Assembly (NCBI GenBank): GCA_000004985.1
Contig: GG738921.1
Length of the DNA: 64,000 bases
Direction: 5' to 3' (one strand)
Origin: Naegleria gruberi
Lineage: Eukaryota
Part shown: positions 2,264 to 56,776 of the stretch, one piece after another
How positions within the stretch are numbered: position 1 is the stretch's first letter
Layout: each line of letters begins with the position of its first letter
Program-made: the position numbers and the translations under genes
Notes under the pieces: generated by a model
What the model saw: only the letters and a program-made list of their open reading frames with translations
The model's database searches: none
What the model was told of the DNA's origin: nothing

Positions 2264-5200
2264 TTAGATTTCTTGACAATAATTACCAGGGAAGAGTCCC
2301 CTCTTTCCTTGTTTTTCACCTTCCCACCAACCAGATGGATCTTTATCTAACAAGGTAATAATTTCTCCTTCACGAAGAGTCAACTCGTCGTCAGCTGAAG
2401 CTTGATAATTGTACAATACCTTAACCTTTGGCTTTTCATCCTTCTTTGGTGGAGGTGGTAACTTCTTCTTATATGCACCACCGCCTTGTTCTTGTTGTTG
2501 AGCTAGGTAGGTTGATTCTTGAATTGGTGCAGTTTCCAATAATGACATTCTGTGACCAATTTGTTTTGGTTGATTGTTGGCTTGATAGGCTTGCATCTTA
2601 ACTTCGACCTTCTTTGGTTGGGAACTTGCTGGTAAACCATCAGCAATACCAATCTTGTAGCCAGAACCAGAACCAGAAACGTTGGCTAACTTGCTCTTTG
2701 GATCCAATACAAATTCTGCCTTCTTAACAGTCTTCTTCTTCTTATTCTCAGTGAAGGACAACATATTTTCAAAGGTACGAGGAATATCACGATTCATCTT
2801 GGCTCTGTATTGATCGTTCAAAATGGCCAAAAATTCAGTCTTGTTTTCACATTCCAAGAATAAGTCATCAATGTTTGGATCATTGATTTGAATGGCAAGC
2901 CAATTGTCAGACAATTGAGACATGGAAACACATTGAATTTGATTCATGGAAATTCTACACAACATGTCCATAATGAATTGCTTCTTGACCTTTTCACGAT
3001 GGATAAAGTACAAGGCCTCATTGGTCAATAGACCCCAAATCTTGTCGAAAGTGACACCCTTCAAGAGTTTCTTCTTTGGTCTCATGAAAATATCACCAAA
3101 GACAACACCACCATCATCTTTACGACCTTGCTTTTTCATCACTTCTTGCAATTGAGCATTATCCATATAATTGGCATGGTCACCCAAAAAGTTTCTATTG
3201 AGTGACAATCTACGACGTTGCTTTCTTCCTTCCAACAAGTCAGCACTGGTATTTCTCAACTTGATAAAGTAACGTTTCAACTTGTAGTTACGCCACAATC
3301 TTTGCATTTGAGTAGCATTGTCGTGGAATAAACGTTCCTTACTTTCTTCCAAACCAAAGAGAGTATCTGGCTTTCTCAAAAAGATTTTAGTTTTACCCAT
3401 TTGATATTCACCTTGATCAATGCCCATATCCTTCAAAATGGTTTCACAACCAGTACGTGGATCACCCTTCCATTGTGGCCATGTCTTTTTAGAGAGGACA
3501 GAGAAGGAGTTCAAGAACTTTTGGAATGGAGCACGGAATGCAAAACCAGCTCTTCTCACACGAATATTTTCCAACAAACCCAAATATTTGACTTGATGGA
3601 GTACACGTTTGGTATCAAAGTCACGAGGTTGCTTGGTTTCGTTTGGTTTAATACAACGAATATAGTGAGGTTCACACTTTTTCAATGTTGCAACCAATTC
3701 CACAGCAGAATTCTTAATCTTAAAACCAGCACTTTCAGGTCTCTTCTTATCATTTTCATTGACATTTTCAGGGAAGAACTTTCTAATGAAAGAATTGGTT
3801 GTAGATTGCATACATTGAATCAAGGTCTTGTAGAGAACGTCCTTATTCTTATCAGTGAAACCATCAATGTTATAATCGACAGTACCAGCATAGTGCTTAA
3901 CTGAAAATTCATTGGTACGACCAACAAAGTGAGGATTATTGACAACTTCACGCAAACGTGTCAAGAATTTTTCATCAGCAGCTCTAGCTTCCATAGAGTG
4001 AGTAGTGTTACAAGTGTCATCGAGAATGGAAAAGATACCAGGTGGATTCTTTTCTTCAATCAAATCACAGACAATCTTATTGTTAAAGTATTGAATTGGT
4101 TCCCATTTGATACCTTCTTGAGTATATTCTTCCTGTTCTGCTTTAAGTGTCAAGTCAATAAAGATTTGTTGCAATTTTTCATTGACATAATTGATACAGA
4201 ATTGTTCAAAACCATTCTTGTCAAAGATTTCAAAACCATAAATGTCCAAAACAGCTAAAATCAAAGTATTCTTCTTTGTATCCATGGCATCATTGATACG
4301 TTTAACCAACCAATCGAACAATCTAGCATATAATACCTTAGCCAAGGCATCACGAATGTTGGCAGCTTGAGCAGGTGATTGAGAAACTGTAATTTCTTCA
4401 TTACCTGATTTGATAATTCTATTCAACAAGGCAAATTGCAACTTATCAGAAGCAACATTGAGTAAATAGGCAGCATAATCCAAAGTACCTGAATCTTCAA
4501 CAACAGATCCTTTACCAGCTTCTCTAAATGTAATGTTACCAAGCCACAAGATACCTGCAACCATTCTCATGATATTTGATTGTTCTTCCTTTGTAATACC
4601 AATAACGTCCATGGCCTTTCTAGTCAATTGATATTCTTCAGCATCATCAATACCATCAACATTGTAACAACCAGATTGTGATAAGTAGTAGAAATCGTGA
4701 GCATTGGTTGTGGCAAATTCTTCCTTTTCTTCCTTAGAAGCACCTGCACACAATTGATAGAAAATGTGGAAGTTACGTTCACCAGCTTGTTGATAGACAA
4801 CTCTGGATTTTTCCAAGAGATAGTTGGTAATTTTACCACCTATTGGATCACCTCTATCATCAAACTGTTTAATAGTTGAGTAGTAGTAGTAGTTGTGGTA
4901 GTAGTAGTTACAGTTTACAATGAAATTTTTGTAACAAGTACATATTGAAATAAATTACAAAAAAATGTTAAACATTATATTAACAAATCAGCAAGTAGTA
5001 CAACATACCTGAATTTCAAAGAATTTACCGAAACGAGATGAATTGTTGTTACGAACAGTTTTGGCATTACCAAAAGCTTCTAACAATGGATTGGACTCGA
5101 GGATAATTCTCTTCACACGATCAACACCAACACCATCACCAGAAACAGCAGCAATATATTGCATAATTAACTTGGAAGCTTCAGTCTATTATAACAATTT

Positions 5201-5709: not shown

Positions 5710-6426
5710 TTTTTACAATTTAAATATTTAATATAATATAATAGTGGAGAGGAAAGTAGAGTGATGATTGTTTTTTCACAAAAATCGGCTAGGGTTTGTT
5801 TAACTCGCTCTGCTGTATTCAACTCTCTCGAGAATTTTTTTTTTGATGGGTTTAACAATTTGACGTTCTCACTTTGAAAGTTGACGTGATTCTCGTACAG
5901 TTTGAATCGCAGTGATGATCTATCACTCGTTTGTGGTAAGACAATTTGCAAACATTTGAAAAAATAGACATTTTATTGATAATTTCTAAAGTTGTTAATA
6001 TAGATTACAATACATGTTAAATATTTTCAATATCTGGTTTTTGTTTAATTGAGAAAACTTGTTAGATTTAATGTTTTTAATAACAATTTCAATTAAAAAC
6101 GGCATTATAATAATGAAAAGTGAGATTCAAGTAAAAAATATTGATTTGTGATTGGTGTGACAGGTTTGACGATCTTGCTCTTTCCTTTTGCAATGAAAAA
6201 TTGCTCTTGATTACAATATTACATTCAGTGTTATTATTCATCATATTAAGAGTATCTCTATTTTAACAAGAATCAGTTAATGATTTTCCTTAATTTCTTT
6301 GTTGTTAACCATCTCATTTGATAAGTTGAGGGAATGTACTCATTGCATAAGTAAAATGAAAGAATTGAGATCCAATGTATGCATCAATCATGATGGATGA
6401 GGGATCAATACTATTGAAAGCACATC

Positions 6427-7529
6427 CTATTGAAAAATAATACTTTCAGAAAGGAAGGGCATTTCTTCAACACTCTTCTTCAGTGAAAACTCTTCATCCT
6501 TTCCTCCATATGTGAATACTCCAATAAAATTATTGTTATAACCAATCACTCGAATTGTTTCCCACATTTTAACAAGTTGATGTTCAATAAAAAGGTCAAA
6601 TTCAAACATTTGTTCAATTTGCTTATTTCTGCAATGAGGAGATGGAAGGATATTTTCTCTAATTGCCATCAATTCAACATTTGTATATTTCTTCTTTAGA
6701 GATGTAATAGTTTCACCTTTAATCTTCTTTGACAATAATCCAAAATCAATTTTTTCTTTAAATTCTTTCAAAACAGTTTCAAAAGACACCCCATTCGATG
6801 AATTGACGAATGAGGCCATATAACTATGCGATGAATCATTTGAACTTGTCATTGAAAATTCCTTAGGAAGACAATATTCACACTTTTTAAAAGGTTTAAA
6901 GATTTTAAAGTCTTCCTCATGAATTCCTTGAGTTTCATCTTTACCAATAATGATTTTTACAAACAAGATACCAGCAGCCTTTTTTCCATCTCTTAGAGGT
7001 AACATTTCTTCGTATTCCTTACCATACTCCAATTCTTCCGATTTAAGAGTCCAAGATGTACTTCCCAGAAAATCCTTAATACAACAATTGATATAGTAAA
7101 TAAGTAATAATAATAATATTATTAAATTTGATTCAATTAATACAAACAAATTATGAACTTACATCTTTTGAGAATCGATCGTAATCATAAACTTCAAAAA
7201 TCACTTCAATTCCCTTGTGCTGCCTATCTAAACAATCAAGGGAATGGAACGTCTTACTTTCATTCCATGAGGGATTTAGATTTTCCATCACTACGGAAGT
7301 TCTTTGCTCCCAAACCTTGTCTGAATTATTTGGAGGCAATCTTTCCTCTCCGACTGATCGTAATTTAATCACCACATACTATTTTAAATCAATTCATGTA
7401 TTAATTATTAATTGAAAATTAAAAGCAATAATACATTACAGGGTCCGAAAGATTATTCAGATCTGATGCTTTGAGTCCAGTGGCTTTATATGGAGAAATG
7501 ATGAGAGTATCAATTGATGAGAAGGGCAT
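6427..7529 (-). CDS. C2-domain protein, paralog A: complement(join(6427..7074,7163..7378,7440..7529)), 317 aa.
   Basis: Exon 0 encodes MPFSSIDTLIISPYKATGLKASDLNNLSDP and splits DP|YV. Exon 1 encodes YVVIKLRSVGEE...LNPSWNE...FEVYDYDRFSKD, a C2 fold signature. Introns are gtaatgt..aaaatag and gtaagt..attaag, and the exon lengths sum to a multiple of three. Confidence 0.7.
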
Positions 7530-7659: not shown

Positions 7660-8809
7660 CTAGAGAAAGAGGGTATTTTCTGAAACTCTGGCAACTTCAG
7701 CTTCACCCATTCTCAAAATACTATGAAGTGCATCTTGTGGTTCAATATAAATGTATAGTCCTAGTTTTCCATTTGAATGAGAAACAATACGGAAAGTTCC
7801 CCACATCCTTATTCCTCCCTTCTTTTCAAGTAAGAGAATGTACTCCATAATATTGGTAATTAATTTGTTTCTACAATGAGGATCTGGGTTAACATGTTCA
7901 TTCTTACTCTTAACTTCCACCTTGGAGTATTCCTTTTTCATGTCACTAATCTTTTGGTCACTCACTTGCTTGGCAATATCTGCAAACTTGGCATTGCTAT
8001 CGAATGGAATAAACTTGGTCAATAATACTTCAGCTCTCTTCATATCTGCAAAAACTGCATTATGCGCATCGGTTTCTTCACTTGAAGAGATGAGAGAAAA
8101 TTGTCTTGGGGTACAAATTTCAGCAAAACCAGATTGGAATGGGGAAATAAAGTTAAATTCCTTATCAACTCTATCTTGTTCATAACTCCAAATCTTGTAA
8201 CTGATATACAGTGTTCCCGATTTACAATCAGTTAATTCAAGGACCTCTGAATATTCCCTATCATGCTCAAGTTTATCACCATCAAGTAGAATTTCAGCTT
8301 GTCCAATAGGATCCTTTCAAAATGATGGATTGATGAATACATTTGAATTTAACACTTACATCCTTAGACAATAAATCCCAATCATAAACTTCAAACTTTA
8401 ACTTGATTCCCAAGCCAGTGTCAAGATACAATAAACTGTGGAATGTTTTATCCTCATTCCATTCGGGATTTAAGGTCTTTTTTTTGACGCTTGTTTTTTG
8501 TCTCCATTCCTTAGCTGTTTCCTTCATTATATCGTCAAATCTTTCATCATCAATGGCTGATTTTGCTTGTACAATCACATACTATTACAAGTCAATAAAC
8601 CAATACTAATTAACAATCACTTACAGGATCCTTTGGAAAGAGTCAATACATCAATCGAATAATAAATTCACTTACAGAAAATCCATTAAGATCAGCCTAT
8701 TACGATAATTAAGATGAATTGATAGCACCAATAAGAGTCAACCTACAGCCTCAAGATTTTTTGCGTGCTTGATTGTCACGGTTAATGTATCCATAGCTCT
8801 GAAAGGCAT
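7660..8809 (-). CDS. C2-domain protein, paralog B (tandem duplicate of A). Proposed structure is complement(join(7660..8313,8360..8581,8625..8630,8676..8696,8747..8809)), with two extra introns and a 6-nt micro-exon.
   Basis: It encodes MPFRAMDTLTVTIKHAKNLEA|ADLNGFS|DP|YVIVQAKS...KKKTLNPEWNE...FEVYDWDLLSKD|DPIGQAEILLD...PHCRNK...MWGTFRIV. This is collinear with paralog A (PHCRNK, MWETIRV). All junctions are GT..AG and the total length is 966 nt. Confidence 0.55.
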
Positions 8810-9121
8810 CTTTAAATTATGTTTGATAAAAATCTAGTAGCAATTGTTGAATCAGTGAAAATGAACACTTGATTGTTTGTTATTTTTTCTGTATTGCTTT
8901 TTGCTTGCTTAATATTGTTATTTACTTTTCAAATCCCATAGTACCTTATTAAAAGTTGTTAGGGACATGAAATTACCATTTCGGGAACGGTTTTTATATA
9001 ATGCCGAAAACCTAAACACCTTAATAGAGTATAACAATAATTTAAAGGTGGGTACTAGCAAAATATCAACAGATTTTTAATCAAGAGTGACTTCACTAGT
9101 TTATTACAACAAATGTTCAAT

Positions 9122-9866
9122 TTAAGCTGTAGTAGTGGTGTTTGAAGCAACTACTGGAGTAACAACAGTTTCAGTCTTCTTGGCCTTCTTAGATCCCTTC
9201 TTGACCTTCTTAACCTTCTTAGCACCCTTCTTAGCAGTCTTTTTTACCTTCTTAGCACCCTTCTTTGTACCCTTCTTGACCTTCTTGGCACCTTTCTTAG
9301 TGGACTTCTTAACCTTCTTAGCCTTCTTAGATCCCTTCTTGGCACCCTTCTTGACCTTCTTAACCTTCTTAGCAGTCTTCTTTGCCTTCTTAGTACCCTT
9401 CTTGGCAGATCTAACAGTCTTCTTTGCCTTCTTAGCACCCTTCTTGGTGGACTTCTTTGGTGTTTTCTTGACAGATCTTACAGTAGTCTTGGTGGACTTC
9501 TTGGCAACCTTCTTAACACCAGTTTTCTTTGGAGTCTTCTTTACAGATCTAACAGCAGTCTTCTTTGGGGAAGCCTTCTTGGTTGCCCTCTTTGTTGTTC
9601 TCTTGACAGATCTAACGGCCTTTGGCTTCTTTGGAGCAGCAACTCTAGTGGAGTTTCTTTGACTAAGAGTCTTGATAACGGTAGGTGGCTTCTTAGCTCT
9701 TGTGGTTTTAGTGGCTCTAACACCTCTAATTTTAGCCTTAGCCTCAGTCTTCCAATTGATAAGAATAAAAGCAACAATTAAAATTAGTACGTACAGCCAT
9801 AGTCATGCCGGCAACACAGGCCAACAAGGCAATCAAACACAATGTAAGGAAAAGCTTAGCACTCAT
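9122..9866 (-). CDS. Signal-peptide-bearing lysine-rich repeat protein with a histone H1 C-terminal-tail-like sequence: complement(join(9122..9748,9795..9866)), 232 aa.
   Basis: Exon 1 encodes MSAKLFLTLCLIALLACVAGMTMA, followed by a gtacgt donor and a 46-nt intron ending ttggaag. Exon 2 encodes TEAKAKIRGVRATK...KKASPKKTAVRSVKKTPKK...(KKGAKKVKKVKKGSKKAKK)n...TETVVTPVVASNTTTTA*. Exon 2 contains no Met, so exon 1 is needed for a start. The plus-strand ORF 9135-9662 is its antisense mirror. Confidence 0.6.
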
Positions 9867-10517
9867 GATTAATGTTGTTCGGTAATTTTTTTTGATGATG
9901 AAAACATACCTCAATCAAAACCGCTTTTTAAAAACTGAGGGACTGTAATCACATTACAGATGAAGTATGCACAACACACTAATACTGATACTCGCCTAAG
10001 GTTAGTGGATAACAATGGGTGGAAAAACAGGATCAGTGTTTGGTAGGTGAATGAAGTAACTTGAGTTTTGTTTTAACTTACGTTGTAATCTATGGAGAGA
10101 CTGTATGTGTAGAAACAGTTAGTAGTAAAATTGAGCAAATTGGGTAATGGAATGTTGTATCGGCGACAATGTGTTTAATTTTATTGAAATAATTGTGGAA
10201 TGTGGATTGTACATCAAAGAGAAAAGTCTTTGAAAATCATTACTGAACTTTGATAGATTCTTATATTCATAATTTTTTAATATTGACATTCACAAAAGAG
10301 AGATAAACAAAATAAAGATGAAATTCATATCTTTATTTGAAATGTTACTAAATAGTTAGTAGAGAGGTTATTAAACAAGCTTTATCTGTCAGTTTTCCTC
10401 CCAATTAATAGTTGTTTAGAGATATGAACAATTTCTCTCTTGTTAATCGAGGAAAATAAGTTTGCCCATAAAGAGCGGTGAGTTGAGCTTTGTTTATTTT
10501 CAAAAAGAAAAAAAAAC

Positions 10518-11486
10518 ATGTTCAAGATCTCATTCGTCGAGTTTTCAACACCTCAAACAATTAAATCAGCCTTATCTTGTGAGGTCAAGAATAAGAACAA
10601 CAATTCTCCAAAGAAACGAGGACGACCACCAAAGAAGAAACAACAGGAAAGAGATTCAAAAGTTGTCACATCCTCAGAATCAATGAAAGATGCTCAAAAG
10701 AATGATGTAAATCATCCTGCTGTGATCTTGACCGAATGTAAGAAGAGGAAATTGGAGAATGTTTGTGAGCAATACAGAACTCCTCCATTGGTGGTTTCTC
10801 CTCCTTCACTGCATGTTGAGGAGGATTCTAATACTCAAGCAACAACAACAACATTAGCAAGGAATAGAAAAATTATAAGAACCTCAATATCGCTTAAAGA
10901 AATATTGAATTATAATGGACAACAANNNNNNNNNNNNNNNNNNNNNNNNNNNNNNNNNNNNNNNNNNNNNNNNNNAAAGATGTACATTAACAAATTCTCT
11001 ATTGTTGACTTTACTCCTGCTCAGAATATTCAAACAAAAACTACTGATTTACCAAAGAAGAGAGGTAGACCACCTAAGAATTCACCACATGCAAACAAAT
11101 CAATGTTTATTAGGTCAACTGAGACAATGCCAATGAGGTATGAATTGACGAATAGAATGACAGACCAATTCAAGAAGGATAAACGAAGAAGAAGGGAAAA
11201 GAAAGCATGTAATAGTCCAAACACATCTAATTGCTCCACATCTAGTAGTACATCATCTTTGACTATTGTGCAAGAATTGAATAATTGTTTAGTTTCAGAC
11301 ACATTAGTTTCGTCTCTTCCAACAACGCATGCATCCACTCCTCAATCTAATATCACTACCACTAACGACAATACAACAACACATCTAGAATCCAATCTTA
11401 TCACCTCCAACAATAACAACACATCCAATTATAAACCTCCAAGAAAGATAAGATATTCGATATCCATCCAAGAATTATTAAATTGA
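10518..11486 (+). CDS. AT-hook (GRP) protein with two similar modules, one on each side of the assembly gap 10926-10975. These may be one gene or two tandem genes. Module 2 starts at ATG 10979.
   Basis: Module 1 reads MFKISFVEFSTP...SPKKRGRPPKKK...KIIRTSISLKEILN. Module 2 reads MYINKFSIVDFTP...LPKKRGRPPKNSP...KIRYSISIQELLN*. Both carry an AT-hook core RGRP. Confidence 0.55.
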   Translation: MFKISFVEFSTPQTIKSALSCEVKNKNNNSPKKRGRPPKKKQQERDSKVVTSSESMKDAQKNDVNHPAVILTECKKRKLENVCEQYRTPPLVVSPPSLHVEEDSNTQATTTTLARNRKIIRTSISLKEILNYNGQQXXXXXXXXXXXXXXXXXKMYINKFSIVDFTPAQNIQTKTTDLPKKRGRPPKNSPHANKSMFIRSTETMPMRYELTNRMTDQFKKDKRRRREKKACNSPNTSNCSTSSSTSSLTIVQELNNCLVSDTLVSSLPTTHASTPQSNITTTNDNTTTHLESNLITSNNNNTSNYKPPRKIRYSISIQELLN

Positions 11487-45346: not shown

Positions 45347-45693
45347 TATTGAATTATTTTTTAACAATTTGAAATAATTTGAGATTCGATTAGAATTAAA
45401 CTATTTAAGATAATTATCTTGGTGGATGTTATATGGAGTTTTGCGCATGTGGAATTATATTGGAATCTATTTGGCATTCAAGAAAAGTGTGTAACGGAGT
45501 TAAATTACAGTGACCATACTTATTGAGTATGAGATACAATGTTCCCATAGCTGAGGATTCGTGTATTAATATATCCATTACTGTTCGTTCTTATTCTCTC
45601 ACTTCTTTTATTAATAAACTACTAGAAATGTACATTTCTATTATTGAACCGATGTGAATGAATAAACAAAGAAATATTTCATAGTGAATGTAT

Positions 45694-45765
45694 TCCCGTG
45701 TAGTCCAATGGCTAGGATACCTGGCTTTCACCCAGGAGGTCCGGGTTCAATTCCCGGCATGGGAG
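45694..45765 (+). tRNA. tRNA-Glu (anticodon UUC), 72 nt.
   Basis: Acceptor stem tcccgtg/catggga. Anticodon stem cctgg/ccagg with loop ctTTCac. T-arm ccggg-ttcaatt-cccgg. Confidence 0.8.
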
Positions 45766-45840
45766 GATAATTTTACATTTTCAAATGCGGAATAGTTTGG
45801 TTATCATCTCCGGATTTATTTCTGAAACACTGCAAAAAAA

Positions 45841-48716
45841 ATGGCAAACTCCTTTTCTTTCATCTTGTTTGCCATCTTGGTTTTGAATTGGGCCTTGTTA
45901 GCCAATTGTAATTTGACTTTTTCACAACAAACATTCAACACTCTCCTCAACTCAACCCAAACTTCAACTCTATCACTGACAATGTACATGGGAGGTGGAA
46001 CAACCATCAAAAACAGTAACAACAGCACATGTGGAATGTCTGTGGATAATCCATGTACAAACTTTAATCAATTATTATTAACTTTTAATTGGACACTCTT
46101 TAGTCAATTTGAGAATTTCACAAAAGCAACATCGGCAGGTGAAAGAAACGTTCACTTGAAGATACTGATACTTCCAGATGGCAGTATTTTCTGTCCTATC
46201 AATCCAGTTAATTTATCTCCTTCAATGAATTATCATTTAGAATTTACGAAACTAGTCGAATCATCAACAATAACACCCATCTTGACCTGCCTCAACACAC
46301 AAGATGGAAATGGCATTTCCATTCCTNNNNNNNNNNNNNNNNNNNNNNNNNNNNNNNNNNNNNNNNNNNNNNNNNNNNNNNNNNNNNNNNNNNNNNNNNN
46401 NNNNNNNNNNNNNNNNNNNNNNNNNNNNNNNNNNNNNNNNNNNNNNNNNNNNNNNNNNNNNNNNNNNNNNNNNNNNNNNNNNNNNNNNNNNNNNNNNNNN
46501 NNNNNNNNNNNNNNNNNNNNNNNNNNNNNNNNNNNNNNNNNNNNNNNNNNNNNNNNNNNNNNNNNNNNNNNNNNNNNNNNNNNNNNNNNNNNNNNNNNNN
46601 NNNNNNNNNNNNNNNNNNNNNNNNNNNNNNNNNNNNNNNNNNNNNNNNNNNNNNNNNNNNNNNNNNNNNNNNNNNNNNNNNNNNNNNNNNNNNNNNNNNN
46701 NNNNNNNNNNNNNNNNNNNNNNNNNNNNNNNNNNNNNNNNNNNNNNNNNNNNNNNNNNNNNNNNNNNNNNNNNNNNNNNNNNNNNNNNNNNNNNNNNNNN
46801 NNNNNNNNNNNNNNNNNNNNNNNNNNNNNNNNNNNNNNNNNNNNNNNNNNNNNNNNNNNNNNNNNNNNNNNNNNNNNNNNNNNNNNNNNNNNNNNNNNNN
46901 NNNNNNNNNNNNNNNNNNNNNNNNNNNNNNNNNNNNNNNNNNNNNNNNNNNNNNNNNNNNNNNNNNNNNNNNNNNNNNNNNNNNNNNNNNNNNNNNNNNN
47001 NNNNNNNNNNNNNNNNNNNNNNNNNNNNNNNNNNNNNNNNNNNNNNNNNNNNNNNNNNNNNNNNNNNNNNNNNNNNNNNNNNNNNNNNNNNNNNNNNNNN
47101 NNNNNNNNNNNNNNNNNNNNNNNNNNNNNNNNNNNNNNNNNNNNNNNNNNNNNNNNNNNNNNNNNNNNNNNNNNNNNNNNNNNNNNNNNNNNNNNNNNNN
47201 NNNNNNNNNNNNNNNNNNNNNNNNNNNNNNNNNNNNNNNNNNNNNNNNNNNNNNNNNNNNNNNNNNNNNNNNNNNNNNNNNNNNNNNNNNNNNNNNNNNN
47301 NNNNNNNNNNNNNNNNNNNNNNNNNNNNNNNNNNNNNNNNNNNNNNNNNNNNNNNNNNNNNNNNNNNNNNNNNNNNNNNNNNNNNNNNNNNNNNNNNNNN
47401 NNNNNNNNNNNNNNNNNNNNNNNNNNNNNNNNNNNNNNNNNNNNNNNNNNNNNNNNNNNNNNNNNNNNNNNNNNNNNNNNNNNNNNNNNNNNNNNNNNNN
47501 NNNNNNNNNNNNNNNNNNNNTTGGAATAGCATTAGGTTTTGGAATATTCTTTGTGTGGAAAATTGTAAAGAAATTGAGAAAACTGAAAAGTAAGGAGAAG
47601 GCAGAGAAACAAATTGAAGAAAAACTTTTAGACAAGCGACTTATTTTCAATATGAATGACGAGGAGGATGAATATTATGAGGGCTCCACACCAAATATTG
47701 AAAGAAGCAAATCATCTTATGGGAAAGTATCTGAAAAGGAGTTAGTTTCTTCATTGATTGACAGTGAAAAGAAGAAATCAAAACATTCTTTCAGTTTTTC
47801 ATCCTCTTACATTATTCCAATTGAAGACATATCAATTATTAAAAAGATTGGAGAAGGAGGCGCAGCTAATGTATATTATGGTACATGGACCAATATTAAA
47901 GTGGCTATCAAGTCACTCAAGATTGACAGTTTTGATGATGATTTTGAGAATGAAGCAGCCATCCTCAGTTTAATTAGACATCCAAACATTCTGACATTCT
48001 ATGGAGTATGTTTGACTGATAAGAGTCGATATATTGTGACTGAATATATGGAAAATGGCTCTCTAGACAGGTATATATTTTTGAATAAGAACAGAGCATT
48101 GAATATTGACCTATTCAAATCAAATATTGGAATTTTGTGTGGAATTGTGGATGGTATGCAATATTTACACTCTCTTAAACCTTCAATTATTCACAGAGAT
48201 TTGAAATCGAGTAATATATTGTTGGACGAAAGAAATACTCCAAAAGTTTCTGATTTTGGTCTTGTTAAAGTATTGGGAAACAATACAATCAGTCAAATTA
48301 CAAAAGGAATTGGTACAGTGTATTATTTAGCTCCAGAAACATTCATTGCTGAACATCAAATTGAAAATAAGGAAGAGGCAACCAAGTTGGACATTTACAG
48401 TTTTGCAATAATCATGTGGGAATTATTCTTTCGAATGAGTCCTTATCATCATGTGAAAAATCCATTCAAAGTGCCTCAAATGGTTGTCAATGGAGAAAGA
48501 CCTCAAATTCCCTTCAATATTGAAAATGATACGGAAATCAAAGAATGGCTTTCAATTCAAGCATTGGAAATTTCATCGTCTGACAATTCTTTCATTAATG
48601 GTATTAAGAAATACTTCTCACTCATTCTCCAATGTTGGAATCAAAATCCATTACAAAGACCTACATTCCTGACAATTAGAAGAGAATTGGATGAGATTTA
48701 CAATCTAATCGGTTGA
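45841..48716 (+). CDS. Receptor-like protein kinase, a paralog of the 26901-30279 gene. Its ectodomain is mostly lost in the 1.2-kb assembly gap.
   Basis: Signal reads MANSFSFILFAILVLNWALLANC. After the gap, TM reads GIALGFGIFFVWKIV. Kinase motifs are IGEGGAANVYYGTWTNIKVAIKSLK, HRDLKSSNILLDE, VSDFGLVKV, GTVYYLAPE and DIYSFAIIMWELF. Confidence 0.65.
46327..47520. other. Assembly gap (run of N). There are smaller gaps at 716-755 and 10926-10975.
   Basis: Uninterrupted n characters. ORFs translated as X-runs across them are artefacts. Confidence 1.
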
Positions 48717-54703: not shown

Positions 54704-56776
54704 ATGTCAACAAATAATGAATTGGTTGTTGACGTCCAACAAATTAAGGATGATATGAAACAACAACAGCAACAACAGCCAGAGAGGAAATCAAGAAATC
54801 CCTTCAAGAAAAACAAGAAAAAGGCTGAAAACAAAGAAACAGAAGATATTGTCGATACAAGAGAACCAAATCTCAAATTTAAAGACAGTTTCACAATTTA
54901 CAAAATCATTGGATGGAATTGGATTTTGATATTCTTGGGAAGTATTGGTGCTATGGGAACAGGTGTTATTCCAATTAGGTAAGTTTCAGATATTTGAGTT
55001 TTTGTTACAAACACTTTCAAAGTTTCCAATTTGTTATGGGAGATTTAATCAATGTCTTTTCACCAACACGTGCCGATGGATCCACTGTTACTGCAGCTGA
55101 ACAGAAAGCTGAAATTGGAACATATGCTTCATACTTTGCAATTATTGCAGCTGCAGCTTGTATTGCCAATTTCATGTCTCAATTCTTTTTGAATTGGGCA
55201 AGTGAAAGAATTGGTGTTGCTATTAGAAGTGCTTATTTTGACTCATTGACAGTTCAAGAGATGGGTTTCTTTGATATTAAGAAGGTTGGTGCATTGACCA
55301 TTACTCTTTCTGAAGATATTACTCGTATTCAGGAAGTTTACTCTGTCAAGTTGGCTACCTTACTTCAAAACTTGGCTCAGTTCGTTGTCGGTGTCATTCT
55401 TGCCTTAACATCAGGATGGCAAATGGCCCTCGTCATGATGAGTACAACACCATTAATGATTTTGGGTGTAGTGTTGTTGGGTGGTGTTATCAGAAAGTTG
55501 ACCTTGTCAATTAATAAGGCCAACGATCATAGTGCCTCCATTGCTACTGAAGTGATGGGAGCTATGAGAACTGTAAGATCAATGGCCGGAGAGGAAAAGG
55601 AAAGAGTCAGATACAAGAAGGACTTGACCAAGATGTATTTGGCTGGTATTGGTAAGGCTGTTGCTCAAGGTTCTACTTTTGGTGTTTTGGTTGGTATCTT
55701 GTGGGGTACTACTGCTTTAGGTAAGTTTTTTTATTATTTCAAATTAGCTCAATAATGTTATTTTAGCTTTCTGGTATGGTGGTGGTCTAGTTGTTGATGG
55801 AACCATGAATATTGGATCTATGCTCAAGGTTTTCGGTTTGACATTGTTTGCTATTATTGGTATTTCTCAAGCTGGTTCATTCTTCCCTGATTATGGTAAG
55901 GCCATGGTTTCTCAAAAGACTGTTTTGAAATTATTGAAGAGACAACCAGCTATTATTTTCAAGGGAGGTAAAACTCTTGATACTATCATTGGTAATGTCA
56001 CATTTGAAAATGTTGATTTTGTCTATCCATCACGTCCAAATGCTACTGTCTTGAAGAATTTCAGTTTGGATATTAAGGCAGGTCAAGCTGTTGCTTTGGT
56101 TGGTCCATCTGGTTCAGGTAAATCAACAATTGTTGGTTTATTGGAAAGATTCTACGACCCAGCTCAGGGTAAGGTTTATCTTGATGGTGTTGATATCGCT
56201 GAAATCGATCCAATGTGGCTCCACAAGAATATTGGTATTGTCACTCAAGAACCTGTATTGTTTGCAACCAGCATTTACAAGAATATTGCTTATGCTATTG
56301 GTGAAGAAAATACTACAATGGAAAAGGTTATTGAAGCCGCTAAATCTGCCAACTGTCACAATTTCATTATGGACTTACCAGATGGATACAATACTTTATT
56401 GGGTGAACGTGGTGTCTCACTCTCAGGTGGTCAAAAGCAACGTGTCTGTATTGCTCGTGCCTTATTGCAAAATCCAAAACTTCTCTTATTGGATGAAGCT
56501 ACATCTGCCTTGGATACTGAATCTGAATCTCTCGTTCAAGCTGCTTTGGATTTATTGATGAAGGGTCGTACAACTATTTGTATTGCTCACAGATTGTCAA
56601 CTGTTAAGAACTCTGACAAGATTTGTGTATTGGCTAAGGGTATTTTGAAAGAAACTGGTACTCATGCCGAATTAATGGCCATTGAAAATGGTATCTATAA
56701 GAATTTGGCTGAAAGACAAATGTTGTTCTCTAATGAAAATGCTGATGTTGAAGCAACAATGGAAGTTTTGCAATAA
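54704..56776 (+). CDS. ABC transporter, B-family half-transporter (TMD-NBD): join(54704..54978,55023..55720,55767..56776), 660 aa.
   Basis: TMD carries the ABCB signature ALAFWYGG. NBD carries Walker A GPSGSGKST, Q-loop, signature LSGGQKQR, Walker B LLLLDEATSALD and the H-loop AHRL. The introns are AG|gtaagt and G|gtaagt, and the total is 1983 nt. Confidence 0.85.

What the first reader, a model, noticed from the sequence alone, without database searches (positions are those of the whole stretch)
9122..9866. Signal-peptide plus histone-H1-tail-like lysine repeat protein. Its sense strand is hidden because the plus-strand ORF 9135-9662 and the minus-strand Arg-rich ORFs are mirror artefacts.
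The minus strand reads MSAKLFLTLCLIALLACVAGMTMA (a classic cleavable signal-like h-region). This is followed by a canonical gtacgt...ag 46-nt intron and a 208-codon open frame. That frame has no Met, is made almost entirely of K/A/V/T/G/S, and contains S/TPKK-type motifs (KKASPKKTAVRSVKKTPKK) and perfect KKGAKKVKKVKKGSKKAKK repeats. Linker-histone C-terminal tails look like this, but here there is no globular winged-helix domain and the N-terminus looks secretory. It could be a secreted polycationic (antimicrobial, matrix, spore-coat or DNA-binding) protein, or an unusual nuclear protein with a hydrophobic leader.
Basis: partly seen in the sequence, partly recalled or inferred. Interest (0 to 1): 0.6.

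Follow-up and report, generated by a model that had tools for sequence, protein, structure and literature searches.

The report
Unannotated Naegleria leader-plus-polylysine gene
The amoeba Naegleria gruberi has a small two-exon gene, absent from the protein databases searched, that most likely encodes a hydrophobic secretion-type leader fused to an extremely lysine-rich tail; it is probably real and has no detectable relatives, but where the protein goes and what it binds could not be settled here.

Summary
On the minus strand there is an ATG at 9866 and a 24-codon hydrophobic leader. A 46-nt GT..AG intron follows (9794-9749), then a 208-codon Met-free frame ending at TAA 9124-9122.

The organism is Naegleria gruberi, not a dictyostelid.

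The lysine frame is very probably coding:
- It is open for 226 codons, which 0 of 2000 dinucleotide shuffles reach.
- All tandem-repeat periods are multiples of 3.
- AAG:AAA is 72:6, against about 1:1 in neighbouring genes.
- It has the best codon score of the six frames.

The 46-nt intron sits at the modal intron size of this window and carries an ATCAAT motif seen near the 3' end of other introns here. The leader is more hydrophobic than 99.5% of ATG-started ORFs in the window. Its 5' flank is A-rich like verified starts.

The mature part has net charge +87. It divides into a disordered S/TPKK segment and a roughly 95-residue predicted helix with Lys periodicity 3.55.

No homologue and no annotation exist in the collections searched. 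There is no H1 globular domain, so it is not a linker-histone family member.

Three things remain unresolved: whether the signal is cleaved (secreted) or acts as a membrane anchor (cytosolic tail), and whether a possible 5'UTR intron (9909-9855) removes the leader. No expression or conservation data were obtainable.

The parts
9795..9866 (-). Exon 1: start codon plus a 24-codon hydrophobic leader, MSAKLFLTLCLIALLACVAGMTMA. Layout is n = MSAK, h = LFLTLCLIALLACV, c = AGMTMA.
   Evidence: The best 15-residue Kyte-Doolittle mean is 2.93; only 0.5% of 369 ATG-started ORFs in the window reach that. Synonymous-codon score is 0.40, giving a likelihood ratio of about 3.6 for coding over non-coding. 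The 5' flank has A = 0.45 and G+C = 0.25, like the verified myosin start.
9749..9794 (-). 46-nt GT-AG intron, phase 0: GTACGTACTAATTTTAATTGTTGCTTTTATTCTTATCAATTGGAAG.
   Evidence: Inferred introns in the window are mostly 40-59 nt, and several have AAG acceptors. A proven 46-nt intron lies at 55721-55766. The TATCAATTG/ATCAAT motif 9-16 nt before the acceptor is shared with introns 12815-12769, 8359-8314 and 7162-7075. In-frame acceptors at 9743 and 9737 (52- and 58-nt introns) are also possible.
9455..9748 (-). Exon 2, first part (aa 25-122): Pro-containing basic segment. It has four [AT]VRS[VA]K(K/R) units, three [ST]PKK motifs and the sequon NST.
   Evidence: AlphaFold2 single-sequence prediction gives coil with pLDDT about 60. 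Three or more [ST]PKK occur in 0.14% of shuffles.
9170..9454 (-). Exon 2, second part (aa 123-217): Pro-free KKx/KKxx array, predicted as a single long helix with a Lys stripe and a Val/Ala seam.
   Evidence: AlphaFold2 predicts a helix over exon-2 residues 99-193, pLDDT about 95. Lys periodicity is 3.55 residues; 0 of 2000 shuffles reach that power. TRF periods are 9, 12, 21, 33 and 42.
9122..9169 (-). C-terminal Thr-rich tail TVVTPVVASNTTTTA (sequon NTT) plus stop codon TAA (9124-9122).
9100..9105 (-). AATAAA hexamer 17 nt after the stop. It is a possible poly(A) signal, consistent with minus-strand transcription, but weak evidence in AT-rich DNA.
   Evidence: Read directly.
9855..9909 (-). 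Candidate 55-nt 5'UTR intron (GTATGT...TTAATCATGAGTGCTAAG). If used, it removes ATG 9866 and makes ATG 9806 the first start, giving a leaderless product MTMATEAK... This belongs to the rival gene model.
   Evidence: Against it: the flank of 9806 has A = 0.07 and G+C = 0.50, unlike real starts.
9135..9662 (+). Antisense 'mirror' ORF (Phe/Leu-rich, GTG start, no ATG). It is not a gene.
   Evidence: Codon score is -0.12, against +0.377 for the Lys frame.

Best explanation
This is a real two-exon Naegleria gruberi gene on the minus strand that has no entry in the protein collections searched.

Shown:
- The structure is a 72-nt first exon, a 46-nt intron and a 627-nt second exon.
- The lysine frame has strong coding signatures.
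- The product has a hydrophobic N-terminal leader. It is followed by a 208-residue polycation (37.5% Lys, net +87, pI about 12).
- The polycation consists of a disordered S/TPKK-bearing half and a roughly 95-residue helix-prone KKx/KKxx array with helical Lys periodicity.

Inferred:
- The leader is an ER signal.
- Most likely it is cleaved near Ala24/Thr25, which is the exon boundary, so the polycation enters the secretory or endolysosomal pathway.
- There it would act electrostatically. It would fold into a Lys-striped helix on contact with polyanions such as bacterial surfaces, nucleic acids, or acidic wall or matrix polymers.
- The extreme codon bias suggests high expression.

It works like an H1 C-terminal tail, as a charge-driven polyanion binder that folds on binding. 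It is not a member of the linker-histone family.
For: Organism: the myosin ORF is 100% identical to the N. gruberi protein D2W159.

Coding frame:
- 226 open codons, reached by 0 of 2000 shuffles.
- Repeat periods are all multiples of 3, despite 13-20% indels between copies.
- AAG:AAA is 72:6 and GC3 is 0.48. The 28 other long ORFs range 0.22-0.79 for AAG fraction, with GC3 of 0.35 or less.
- No G-ending codon occurs in the four-fold families.
- Best codon score of the six frames.

Intron: modal size, AAG acceptors in use locally, and a shared ATCAAT motif.

Leader:
- Hydrophobicity is in the top 0.5%.
- Codon score is typical of coding sequence.
- The 5' flank is A-rich, like the verified myosin start.
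- n/h/c layout with small residues at -3/-1 (VAG|M and TMA|T), read directly from the sequence.

Lumenal exposure: both Asn residues lie in N-x-S/T sequons (p = 0.039).

Helix.
Against: - No transcript, proteomic or conservation evidence could be obtained. Neither the N. gruberi protein set in the collections nor any other proteome there holds a relative.
- The donor GTACGT is non-consensus.
- The mature N-terminus is strongly positive (+4 in 15 residues, against +1 to +2 on the N side). The 19-residue leader window also has a membrane-insertion free energy of about -2.9 kcal/mol. That figure is a simple sum on the Hessa scale, whose values I recalled from memory. Both features favour a reverse signal-anchor with the Lys domain in the cytosol.
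- There is no acidic pro-region to neutralise +87 charges, as secreted polycations usually have (my own knowledge).
- [ST]PKK enrichment (p = 0.0014) is the hallmark of nuclear, CDK-regulated H1 tails.
- A consensus GTATGT donor at 9909 could splice out the leader's ATG.
Confidence: 0.38

Rival explanations
1. Membrane-anchored polycation. The leader is not cleaved and inserts as a reverse (type III, N-out/C-in) signal-anchor. The H1-like Lys domain therefore sits on the cytosolic or nucleoplasmic face of the ER or nuclear envelope. There it would tether RNA or ribosomes (as vertebrate p180/RRBP1 does) or chromatin, possibly released by CDK phosphorylation of the S/TPKK sites.
For: - The uncharged run is 20 residues, and the Hessa-scale sum (values recalled from memory) is -2.9 kcal/mol.
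- The C-side flank is +4 and the N-side flank +1 to +2, so the positive-inside and charge-difference rules predict a cytosolic C-terminus (the rules are from my own knowledge).
- [ST]PKK is enriched, p = 0.0014.
- The mature part has no Cys and no acidic pro-region.
Against: - The n/h/c layout (4/14/6) and two good -3/-1 sites look like a textbook cleavable signal.
- The predicted cleavage site coincides with the exon boundary.
- Both Asn residues lie in sequons.
- No homology to p180, LBR or any anchor family was found.
Confidence: 0.27
2. Leaderless nuclear H1-like protein. Transcription starts upstream of 9909 and a 55-nt 5'UTR intron (9909-9855) removes ATG 9866, or transcription starts downstream of 9866. 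Translation then begins at ATG 9806 or 9800 (MTMATEAK... or MATEAK...). The product is a 210-212 aa linker-histone-like protein without a globular domain, as in kinetoplastids and Tetrahymena.
For: - A perfect GTATGT donor at 9909 with a TTAAT motif and an AAG acceptor, 55 nt in length.
- In-frame ATGs at 9806 and 9800 with a purine at -3.
- H1-tail composition and S/TPKK motifs.
- Protist H1s that lack the globular domain exist (my own knowledge).
- Introns right after the start codon are common in highly expressed genes (my own knowledge).
Against: - It requires an in-frame, stop-free, signal-peptide-grade hydrophobic ORF to lie upstream by chance, in the top 0.5% for hydrophobicity.
- That stretch uses coding-like codons, likelihood ratio about 3.6.
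- It is A-poor (0.07) and GC-rich (0.50), unlike every plausible 5' flank in the window. The flank of 9866 looks like a real start.
- GTATGT and GTAAGT together occur 49 times in the window, so one chance copy within 100 nt is not rare.
Confidence: 0.17
3. Not a gene. It is a purine-rich (AAG)n-like minisatellite that happens to stay open in one frame, with a fortuitous upstream ATG and GT..AG.
For: - It is unannotated in the reference proteome, and no homologue was found anywhere.
- Low-complexity AAG-rich DNA has few stop codons.
Against: - 0 of 2000 dinucleotide shuffles reach 226 open codons.
- All repeat periods are multiples of 3.
- The open frame extends about 190 nt beyond the repeats into non-repetitive sequence on the 5' side and 45 nt on the 3' side.
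- Codon choice matches host preference in this frame only.
- The intron, the start context and the leader all fit together.
Confidence: 0.08

Closest known systems
C-terminal domain of linker histone H1, and the H1 proteins of kinetoplastids and Tetrahymena that lack a globular domain
   Same: Composition of about 35-40% Lys plus Ala/Thr/Ser/Pro, S/TPKK motifs, intrinsic disorder with helix formation expected on binding polyanions, and codon bias suggesting very high expression.
   Different: - No winged-helix domain.
- No detectable sequence similarity.
- A hydrophobic ER-type leader.
- A Pro-free 95-residue array with strict 3.55-residue Lys periodicity, which H1 tails lack.
- Ala is less dominant, and Val/Thr/Gly are frequent.
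Vertebrate p180/RRBP1 (and kinectin): an N-terminal signal-anchor followed by a Lys-rich, tandem-repeat cytosolic domain that binds ribosomes and mRNA
   Same: The architecture is the same: a short N-flank, a hydrophobic segment of about 20 residues, then a long basic repetitive domain. The flank charges predict the same topology.
   Different: There is no homology. This protein is far more basic and has essentially no acidic residues. It has no coiled-coil C-terminal domain. p180 is vertebrate-specific (my own knowledge).
Secreted polycations: silaffins, sandcastle-worm and mussel adhesive proteins, and cationic alpha-helical antimicrobial peptides
   Same: A signal peptide plus a Lys-rich repetitive mature part, and an amphipathic cationic helix periodicity like that of linear antimicrobial peptides.
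   Different: - Those proteins carry acidic pro-regions, or heavy phosphorylation or partner polyanions.
- Antimicrobial peptides are 20-40 residues with a truly hydrophobic face. Here the face is Val/Ala/Gly/Thr/Ser and the helix is 95 residues.
- No RXL or other clear processing pattern is present.
- No homology was found.
Bacterial histone-like Lys-rich tails (for example the Bradyrhizobium adenylate kinase C-terminal extension, or Chlamydia Hc1)
   Same: These were the only database 'hits' (E = 0.002-10), matched through KKxAKK-type low complexity.
   Different: The similarity is compositional only. They come from a different domain of life, and have no leader and no intron.

Membership tests
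Linker histone H1/H5 (Pfam PF00538) | Globular winged-helix (GH1/GH5) domain | tested here: not met
   An hmmscan against Pfam at E <= 10 finds no Linker_histone match, only noise (DUF3679 at 0.47, Mitofilin at 0.76). AlphaFold2 shows coil plus one helix and no globular fold.
Linker histone H1/H5 (Pfam PF00538) | Lys/Ala/Pro-rich tail with S/TPxK motifs | tested here: met
   Lys is 37.5% of the mature part. There are three [ST]PKK motifs, at aa 84, 96 and 120. This enrichment has p = 0.0014 by shuffling.
Linker histone H1/H5 (Pfam PF00538) | Detectable sequence relationship to known H1 proteins | tested here: not met
   No H1 appears among the hits in 5.8 billion and 1.84 billion protein libraries or in the PDB.
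Protist H1 without a globular domain (kinetoplastid/Tetrahymena type) | Nuclear, leaderless, tail-only Lys-rich protein | tested here: inconclusive
   The composition fits. A leaderless product is possible only under the rival gene model, with ATG 9806/9800, which start-context and leader statistics disfavour. Localisation is not testable here.
Proteins with a cleavable ER signal peptide | n-region with positive charge, h-region of 7-15 hydrophobic residues, c-region with small residues at -3/-1 | tested here: met
   By inspection: MSAK / LFLTLCLIALLACV / AGMTMA, with -3/-1 = V,G or T,A. Hydrophobicity is in the top 0.5% of ORFs. SignalP, Phobius and DeepTMHMM were not available, so the cleavage call itself is untested.
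Proteins with a cleavable ER signal peptide | Flanking charges compatible with N-in/C-out insertion (the mature N-terminus is not more positive than the n-region) | tested here: not met
   The N flank is +1 (+1 for the amino terminus). The first 15 mature residues are +4. This favours the reverse orientation.
Type III signal-anchor Lys-rich ER proteins (p180/RRBP1-like) | An N-terminal transmembrane segment long and hydrophobic enough to stay in the membrane, followed by a basic cytosolic repeat domain | tested here: inconclusive
   The uncharged run is 20 residues and the summed Hessa-scale free energy is about -2.9 kcal/mol (scale values from memory). A basic repeat domain is present. No homology was found. 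Topology is not testable here.
Linear cationic alpha-helical antimicrobial peptides | Amphipathic helix with a cationic face and a strongly hydrophobic face, 20-40 residues | tested here: not met
   The periodicity of 3.55 residues fits. However, the non-Lys face is Val/Ala/Gly/Thr/Ser, and the helix is 95 residues with no evident processing sites.
Kinetoplast-associated H1-like proteins (KAPs) | Short basic amphipathic mitochondrial presequence | tested here: not met
   The leader has one Lys and a 20-residue hydrophobic run. That makes it ER-type, not a mitochondrial presequence (the family features are from my own knowledge).

The most novel reading that the evidence does not exclude
The protein is a membrane-tethered linker-histone mimic. 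An uncleaved N-terminal anchor would place an S/TPKK-bearing, H1-tail-like domain and a 95-residue Lys-striped helix on the nucleoplasmic or cytosolic face of the nuclear envelope or ER. There it would tether chromatin (or RNA and ribosomes) directly to membrane by charge, in a protist with closed mitosis. No such family has been described, and it would have been missed because low-complexity genes went unannotated.
Probability: 0.12. Interest if true: 0.7.

Novelty: new variant of a known kind. Interest (0 to 1): 0.42.

Why it matters
If expressed as modelled, this gene shows that the N. gruberi reference annotation misses strongly codon-biased, probably abundant, low-complexity genes. It would also add an unusual architecture: an ER-type leader fused directly to an un-neutralised +87 polylysine-like domain with helical periodicity.

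Depending on topology, it would be one of two things:
- A natural secreted 'polylysine', which could act as an antimicrobial, an adhesive or a wall-crosslinking agent in a bacterivorous amoeba related to the pathogen N. fowleri.
- A charge-based membrane tether for nucleic acids.

Either is testable with existing RNA-seq and acid-extract proteomics data. If it instead proves leaderless, it is simply a candidate tail-only H1 of Naegleria, which is useful but ordinary.

Tried and rejected
1. Homologue searches:
- The full spliced protein at E <= 1e-3 gave nothing.
- The same query at E <= 10 gave only Lys-rich tails of Bradyrhizobium adenylate kinases.
- Exon 2 against 1.84 billion representatives gave one spurious Glu/Lys/Ala-rich hit, P0121.
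- A local phmmer control showed that an identical copy, or a 60-100 aa fragment, would score E = 1e-19 to 1e-90. The absence is therefore real.

2. Exact look-ups also found nothing:
- Five alternative gene models and the unspliced 40-aa ORF are not in the collection.
- The antisense ORF is not on record.
- Neighbouring ORFs and the N. gruberi myosin are not in the gene-position index. No second copy of the locus or transcript contig could be fetched.

3. Synteny: the myosin loci of Willaertia magna (L001) and three metagenomic relatives (L002-L004) have an ankyrin gene upstream and no Lys-rich ORF. No orthologue could be placed.

4. DNA pattern scans of JGI metagenomes, using an exact exon-1 23-mer and a degenerate VRSVKKTPKK pattern, gave 0 hits.

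5. Viral origin: no relative in IMG/VR.

6. Rfam on 8000-11000 found nothing. Pfam found nothing. The PDB gave only weak matches to designed helical proteins.

7. Literature on Naegleria H1, lysine-rich proteins and the secretome gave nothing specific.

8. The dictyostelid assignment was rejected.

9. The apparent 11-16% GC island at 46-48 kb is a run of 1194 N, not a feature.

10. GPI-anchor reading of the C-terminus was rejected: TVVTPVVASNTTTTA has no hydrophobic tail.

11. Mitochondrial presequence and outer-membrane anchor readings were rejected: the leader is too hydrophobic, and the five residues after it have net charge 0.
Full report
**Where the window comes from.** The 850-aa ORF at 2264-4816(-) is 100% identical to the NCBI/UniProt protein 'myosin [Naegleria gruberi]' (D2W159). 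The next best hits are an unnamed ENA sequence (84%), Willaertia magna (72%) and Acrasis kona (54%). It has about 33% GC, is gene-dense, and contains three runs of N.

**The observation.** On the minus strand, ATG 9866 opens MSAKLFLTLCLIALLACVAGMTMA (9866-9795).
- A 46-nt GTACGT...GGAAG segment follows (9794-9749).
- After it comes a 208-codon frame (9748-9125) with no Met, ending in TAA at 9124-9122.
- Unspliced, the leader frame hits TGA after 40 codons.
- The Lys frame is closed upstream by a TGA at 9805-9803, in the last codons of exon 1 just before the intron.
- A start codon can therefore only be supplied by splicing.

The product is 232 aa. After the leader it has 78 Lys and 11 Arg against 2 Glu, giving net +87, pI about 12 and 22.4 kDa. 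The quoted motif KKASPKKTAVRSVKKTPKK is there. The 19-mer said to be a perfect repeat occurs once, and only 9-mers such as KKGAKKVKK recur, 2-3 times.

**Is the lysine frame really coding?**
- The frame is open for 226 codons. In 2000 dinucleotide-preserving shuffles the longest open run in any of six frames averaged 76 and never exceeded 183.
- Tandem Repeats Finder reports periods of 9, 12, 21, 33 and 42 nt. All are multiples of three, although copies differ by 13-20% indels. That pattern is what selection on a reading frame produces.
- Lys is encoded AAG 72 times and AAA 6 times. The 28 other long ORFs of the window range from 0.22 to 0.79 AAG (about 0.5 overall). GC3 is 0.48 against 0.35 or less.
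- None of the 92 codons in four-fold families ends in G.
- A synonymous-codon score trained on the window's long ORFs is highest for this frame (+0.377). It is negative for the plus-strand ORF 9135-9662 (-0.12).
- The plus-strand ORF has no ATG, and the Arg-rich ORFs are short.

The 'mirror artefact' reading of the other ORFs is therefore supported, and the minus strand is the sense strand. An AATAAA lies 17 nt after the stop, which is weakly consistent with this.

**Is the intron credible?**
- A splice that restores the ABC-transporter motif ...TALAFWYGGGLV... proves a 46-nt GTAAGT...TTTTAG intron at 55721-55766.
- An ORF-joining scan of the window found 21 candidate introns. Fifteen are 40-59 nt long, the donors are mostly GTAAGT or GTATGT, and several acceptors are AAG.
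- The two introns of the annotated myosin are longer (about 140 and 185 nt) and use GTATGT.
- The target intron is at the modal length.
- Its 3' end, TATCAATTGGAAG, carries an ATCAAT motif found 9-16 nt before the acceptor in three other short introns. One of those has the identical TATCAATTG.
- Its donor GTACGT differs from the consensus at position 4 and was not seen among the inferred introns.
- In-frame acceptors 6 and 12 nt further on would give 230- or 228-aa products.

**Is the leader translated?** This is the weakest link, and I tested it in four ways.
1. Hydrophobicity. The best 15-residue Kyte-Doolittle mean is 2.93. Only 0.5% of 369 ATG-started ORFs of 24 or more codons, in all six frames of the window, reach it.
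2. Codon choice. The leader scores 0.40. The mean is 0.32 for coding 24-codon windows and 0.03 for non-coding ones, giving a likelihood ratio of about 3.6.
3. Start context. The 40 nt before ATG 9866 have A = 0.45 and G+C = 0.25, like the verified myosin start and other likely starts. The 40 nt before the downstream ATGs 9806 and 9800 have A = 0.07 and G+C = 0.50, like coding sequence.
4. A counter-observation. A perfect GTATGT lies at 9909. Together with a TTAAT motif and an AAG acceptor at 9855, it would make a 55-nt 5'UTR intron that deletes ATG 9866. That would leave MTMATEAK... as a leaderless product.

GTATGT and GTAAGT occur 49 times in the window on both strands, so one chance copy within 100 nt is not rare. 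Weighing these four points, I put the leader-containing model at about 0.8 of the coding models.

**Anatomy of the mature part.** AlphaFold2 was run on exon 2 alone, without an alignment, so it should be treated with caution. It gives coil for residues 1-98 (pLDDT about 60) and a single helix for residues 99-193 (pLDDT about 95).
- The first half holds all but one of the Pro residues (the eighth lies in the C-terminal tail), four [AT]VRS[VA]K units, three [ST]PKK motifs and the sequon NST.
- The second half is a Pro-free array of KK pairs spaced 3 or 4 residues apart. The Fourier peak is at 3.55 residues, and 0 of 2000 shuffles reach that power.
- That spacing lines the Lys pairs along one side of a helix and leaves a Val/Ala seam flanked by Gly/Thr/Ser on the other.
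- This regularity is not a property of H1 tails. It argues for selection on a helical, polyanion-induced conformation rather than on composition alone.
- The tail TVVTPVVASNTTTTA carries the second sequon.
- Both Asn residues of the mature protein lie in N-x-S/T (p = 0.039). Three [ST]PKK has p = 0.0014, although two copies come from one duplicated unit.

**Relatives and annotation.**
- Two searches of 5.8 billion proteins and one exhaustive HMMER scan of 1.84 billion cluster representatives gave no relative. They returned only Lys-rich tails of Bradyrhizobium adenylate kinases (E >= 0.002) and one Glu/Lys/Ala-rich protein.
- A local control shows that identical or partial copies would have scored E = 1e-19 to 1e-90 at that database size.
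- Exact look-ups of five gene models failed.
- The gene is therefore absent from the NCBI, UniProt and EukProt protein sets held in these collections. This includes N. gruberi's own set, which does hold the neighbouring myosin.
- Pfam, PDB, Rfam, IMG/VR and two metagenome DNA scans were also negative.
- Syntenic loci around the orthologous myosin in Willaertia and three metagenomic heteroloboseans differ upstream and hold no Lys-rich ORF.
- Conservation therefore could not be assessed. Neither could expression, because the myosin cluster has no Logan-derived member. That suggests N. gruberi runs are simply not in that source.

**What it most likely is and does.** Shown: a coherent two-exon gene whose product is a hydrophobic leader plus an extreme polycation. 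Inferred: the leader is an ER signal. Its n/h/c proportions (4/14/6), small residues at -3/-1 (VAG|M and TMA|T), and the coincidence of the second site with the exon boundary are those of a cleavable signal peptide. I therefore rank 'enters the secretory or endolysosomal pathway and acts as a polyanion-binding polycation' first, at about 0.38.

The rival topology is close behind, at about 0.27.
- The uncharged run is 20 residues.
- The simple Hessa-scale sum is about -2.9 kcal/mol (scale values recalled from memory).
- The C-side flank (+4) is more positive than the N-side flank (+1 to +2).
- By the charge-difference rule, this predicts an N-out/C-in anchor that leaves the Lys domain cytosolic or nucleoplasmic.
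- That is the p180/RRBP1 architecture, and it would make sense of the S/TPKK sites.

The leaderless H1-like model gets about 0.17 and 'not a gene' about 0.08. I could not run SignalP or a topology predictor.

**Comparison with known families.** The protein works like an H1 C-terminal tail, as a charge-driven polyanion binder that folds on binding. It nevertheless fails the defining tests for the linker-histone family, because it has no winged-helix domain and no detectable sequence relationship. It cannot be filed with p180, KAPs, silaffins or antimicrobial peptides either, since each fails at least one defining feature (see the membership table). I rate it a new variant of a known kind (Lys-rich, H1-tail-like low-complexity proteins) rather than categorically new. 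Nothing beyond sequence logic supports its expression, its topology or its target.

**Verdict.** Interest is moderate (0.42). It is an unannotated, strongly codon-biased orphan with an unusual leader-plus-polylysine-helix architecture in a reference genome, and it can be resolved cheaply with existing RNA-seq and acid-extract proteomics.

Noticed in passing
window 10518-11486 (+): This is the divergent neighbour, 651 nt upstream of the target's ATG. It is a 322-codon ORF with no Pfam hit. It consists of two similar halves, each with an AT-hook-like KKRGRPPK motif and a similar ending (IRTSISLKEILNY / IRYSISIQELLN). A 50-N assembly gap (10926-10975) interrupts it.
   Followed up: partly
window 46327-47520: The apparent 11-16% GC island with 400-560 aa ORFs in four frames is a run of 1194 N, an assembly gap and not a centromere or repeat. 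Further 50-N gaps lie at 706-755 and 10926-10975.
   Followed up: yes
window 55721-55766 (+), and the set listed: The window's introns fall mostly in a tight 40-59 nt class (mode 46-47). Donors are GTAAGT or GTATGT, and A is frequent at acceptor position -3 (AAG/TAG/CAG). A recurrent ATCAAT/CTAAT motif lies 9-16 nt before the acceptor and is probably the branch site. The myosin introns are longer (about 140 and 185 nt).
   Followed up: partly
window 8582-8675 (-): In the C2-domain gene just downstream of the target, two short GTAAGT introns (45 and 43 nt) appear to flank a 6-nt micro-exon, GATCCT (8630-8625). This was not verified against a protein.
   Followed up: no
window 9904-9909 (-): A consensus GTATGT donor lies 43 nt upstream of the target's ATG. 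It may define a 5'UTR intron (9909-9855), or alternative splicing that yields a leaderless isoform.
   Followed up: partly
L001 8749-9365; L002 744-1190; L004 2615-3016, compared with window 5710-6400: In Willaertia magna and the three metagenomic heterolobosean contigs (L002-L004), a small ankyrin-repeat gene sits head-to-head upstream of the orthologous myosin I gene. N. gruberi instead has a different set of genes there: ORF 6427-7149, the C2-domain gene and the Lys-rich gene. Synteny therefore breaks at the myosin 5' end.
   Followed up: partly
window 45693-45766 (+): A single tRNA-Glu(TTC) gene lies next to the large assembly gap.
   Followed up: no
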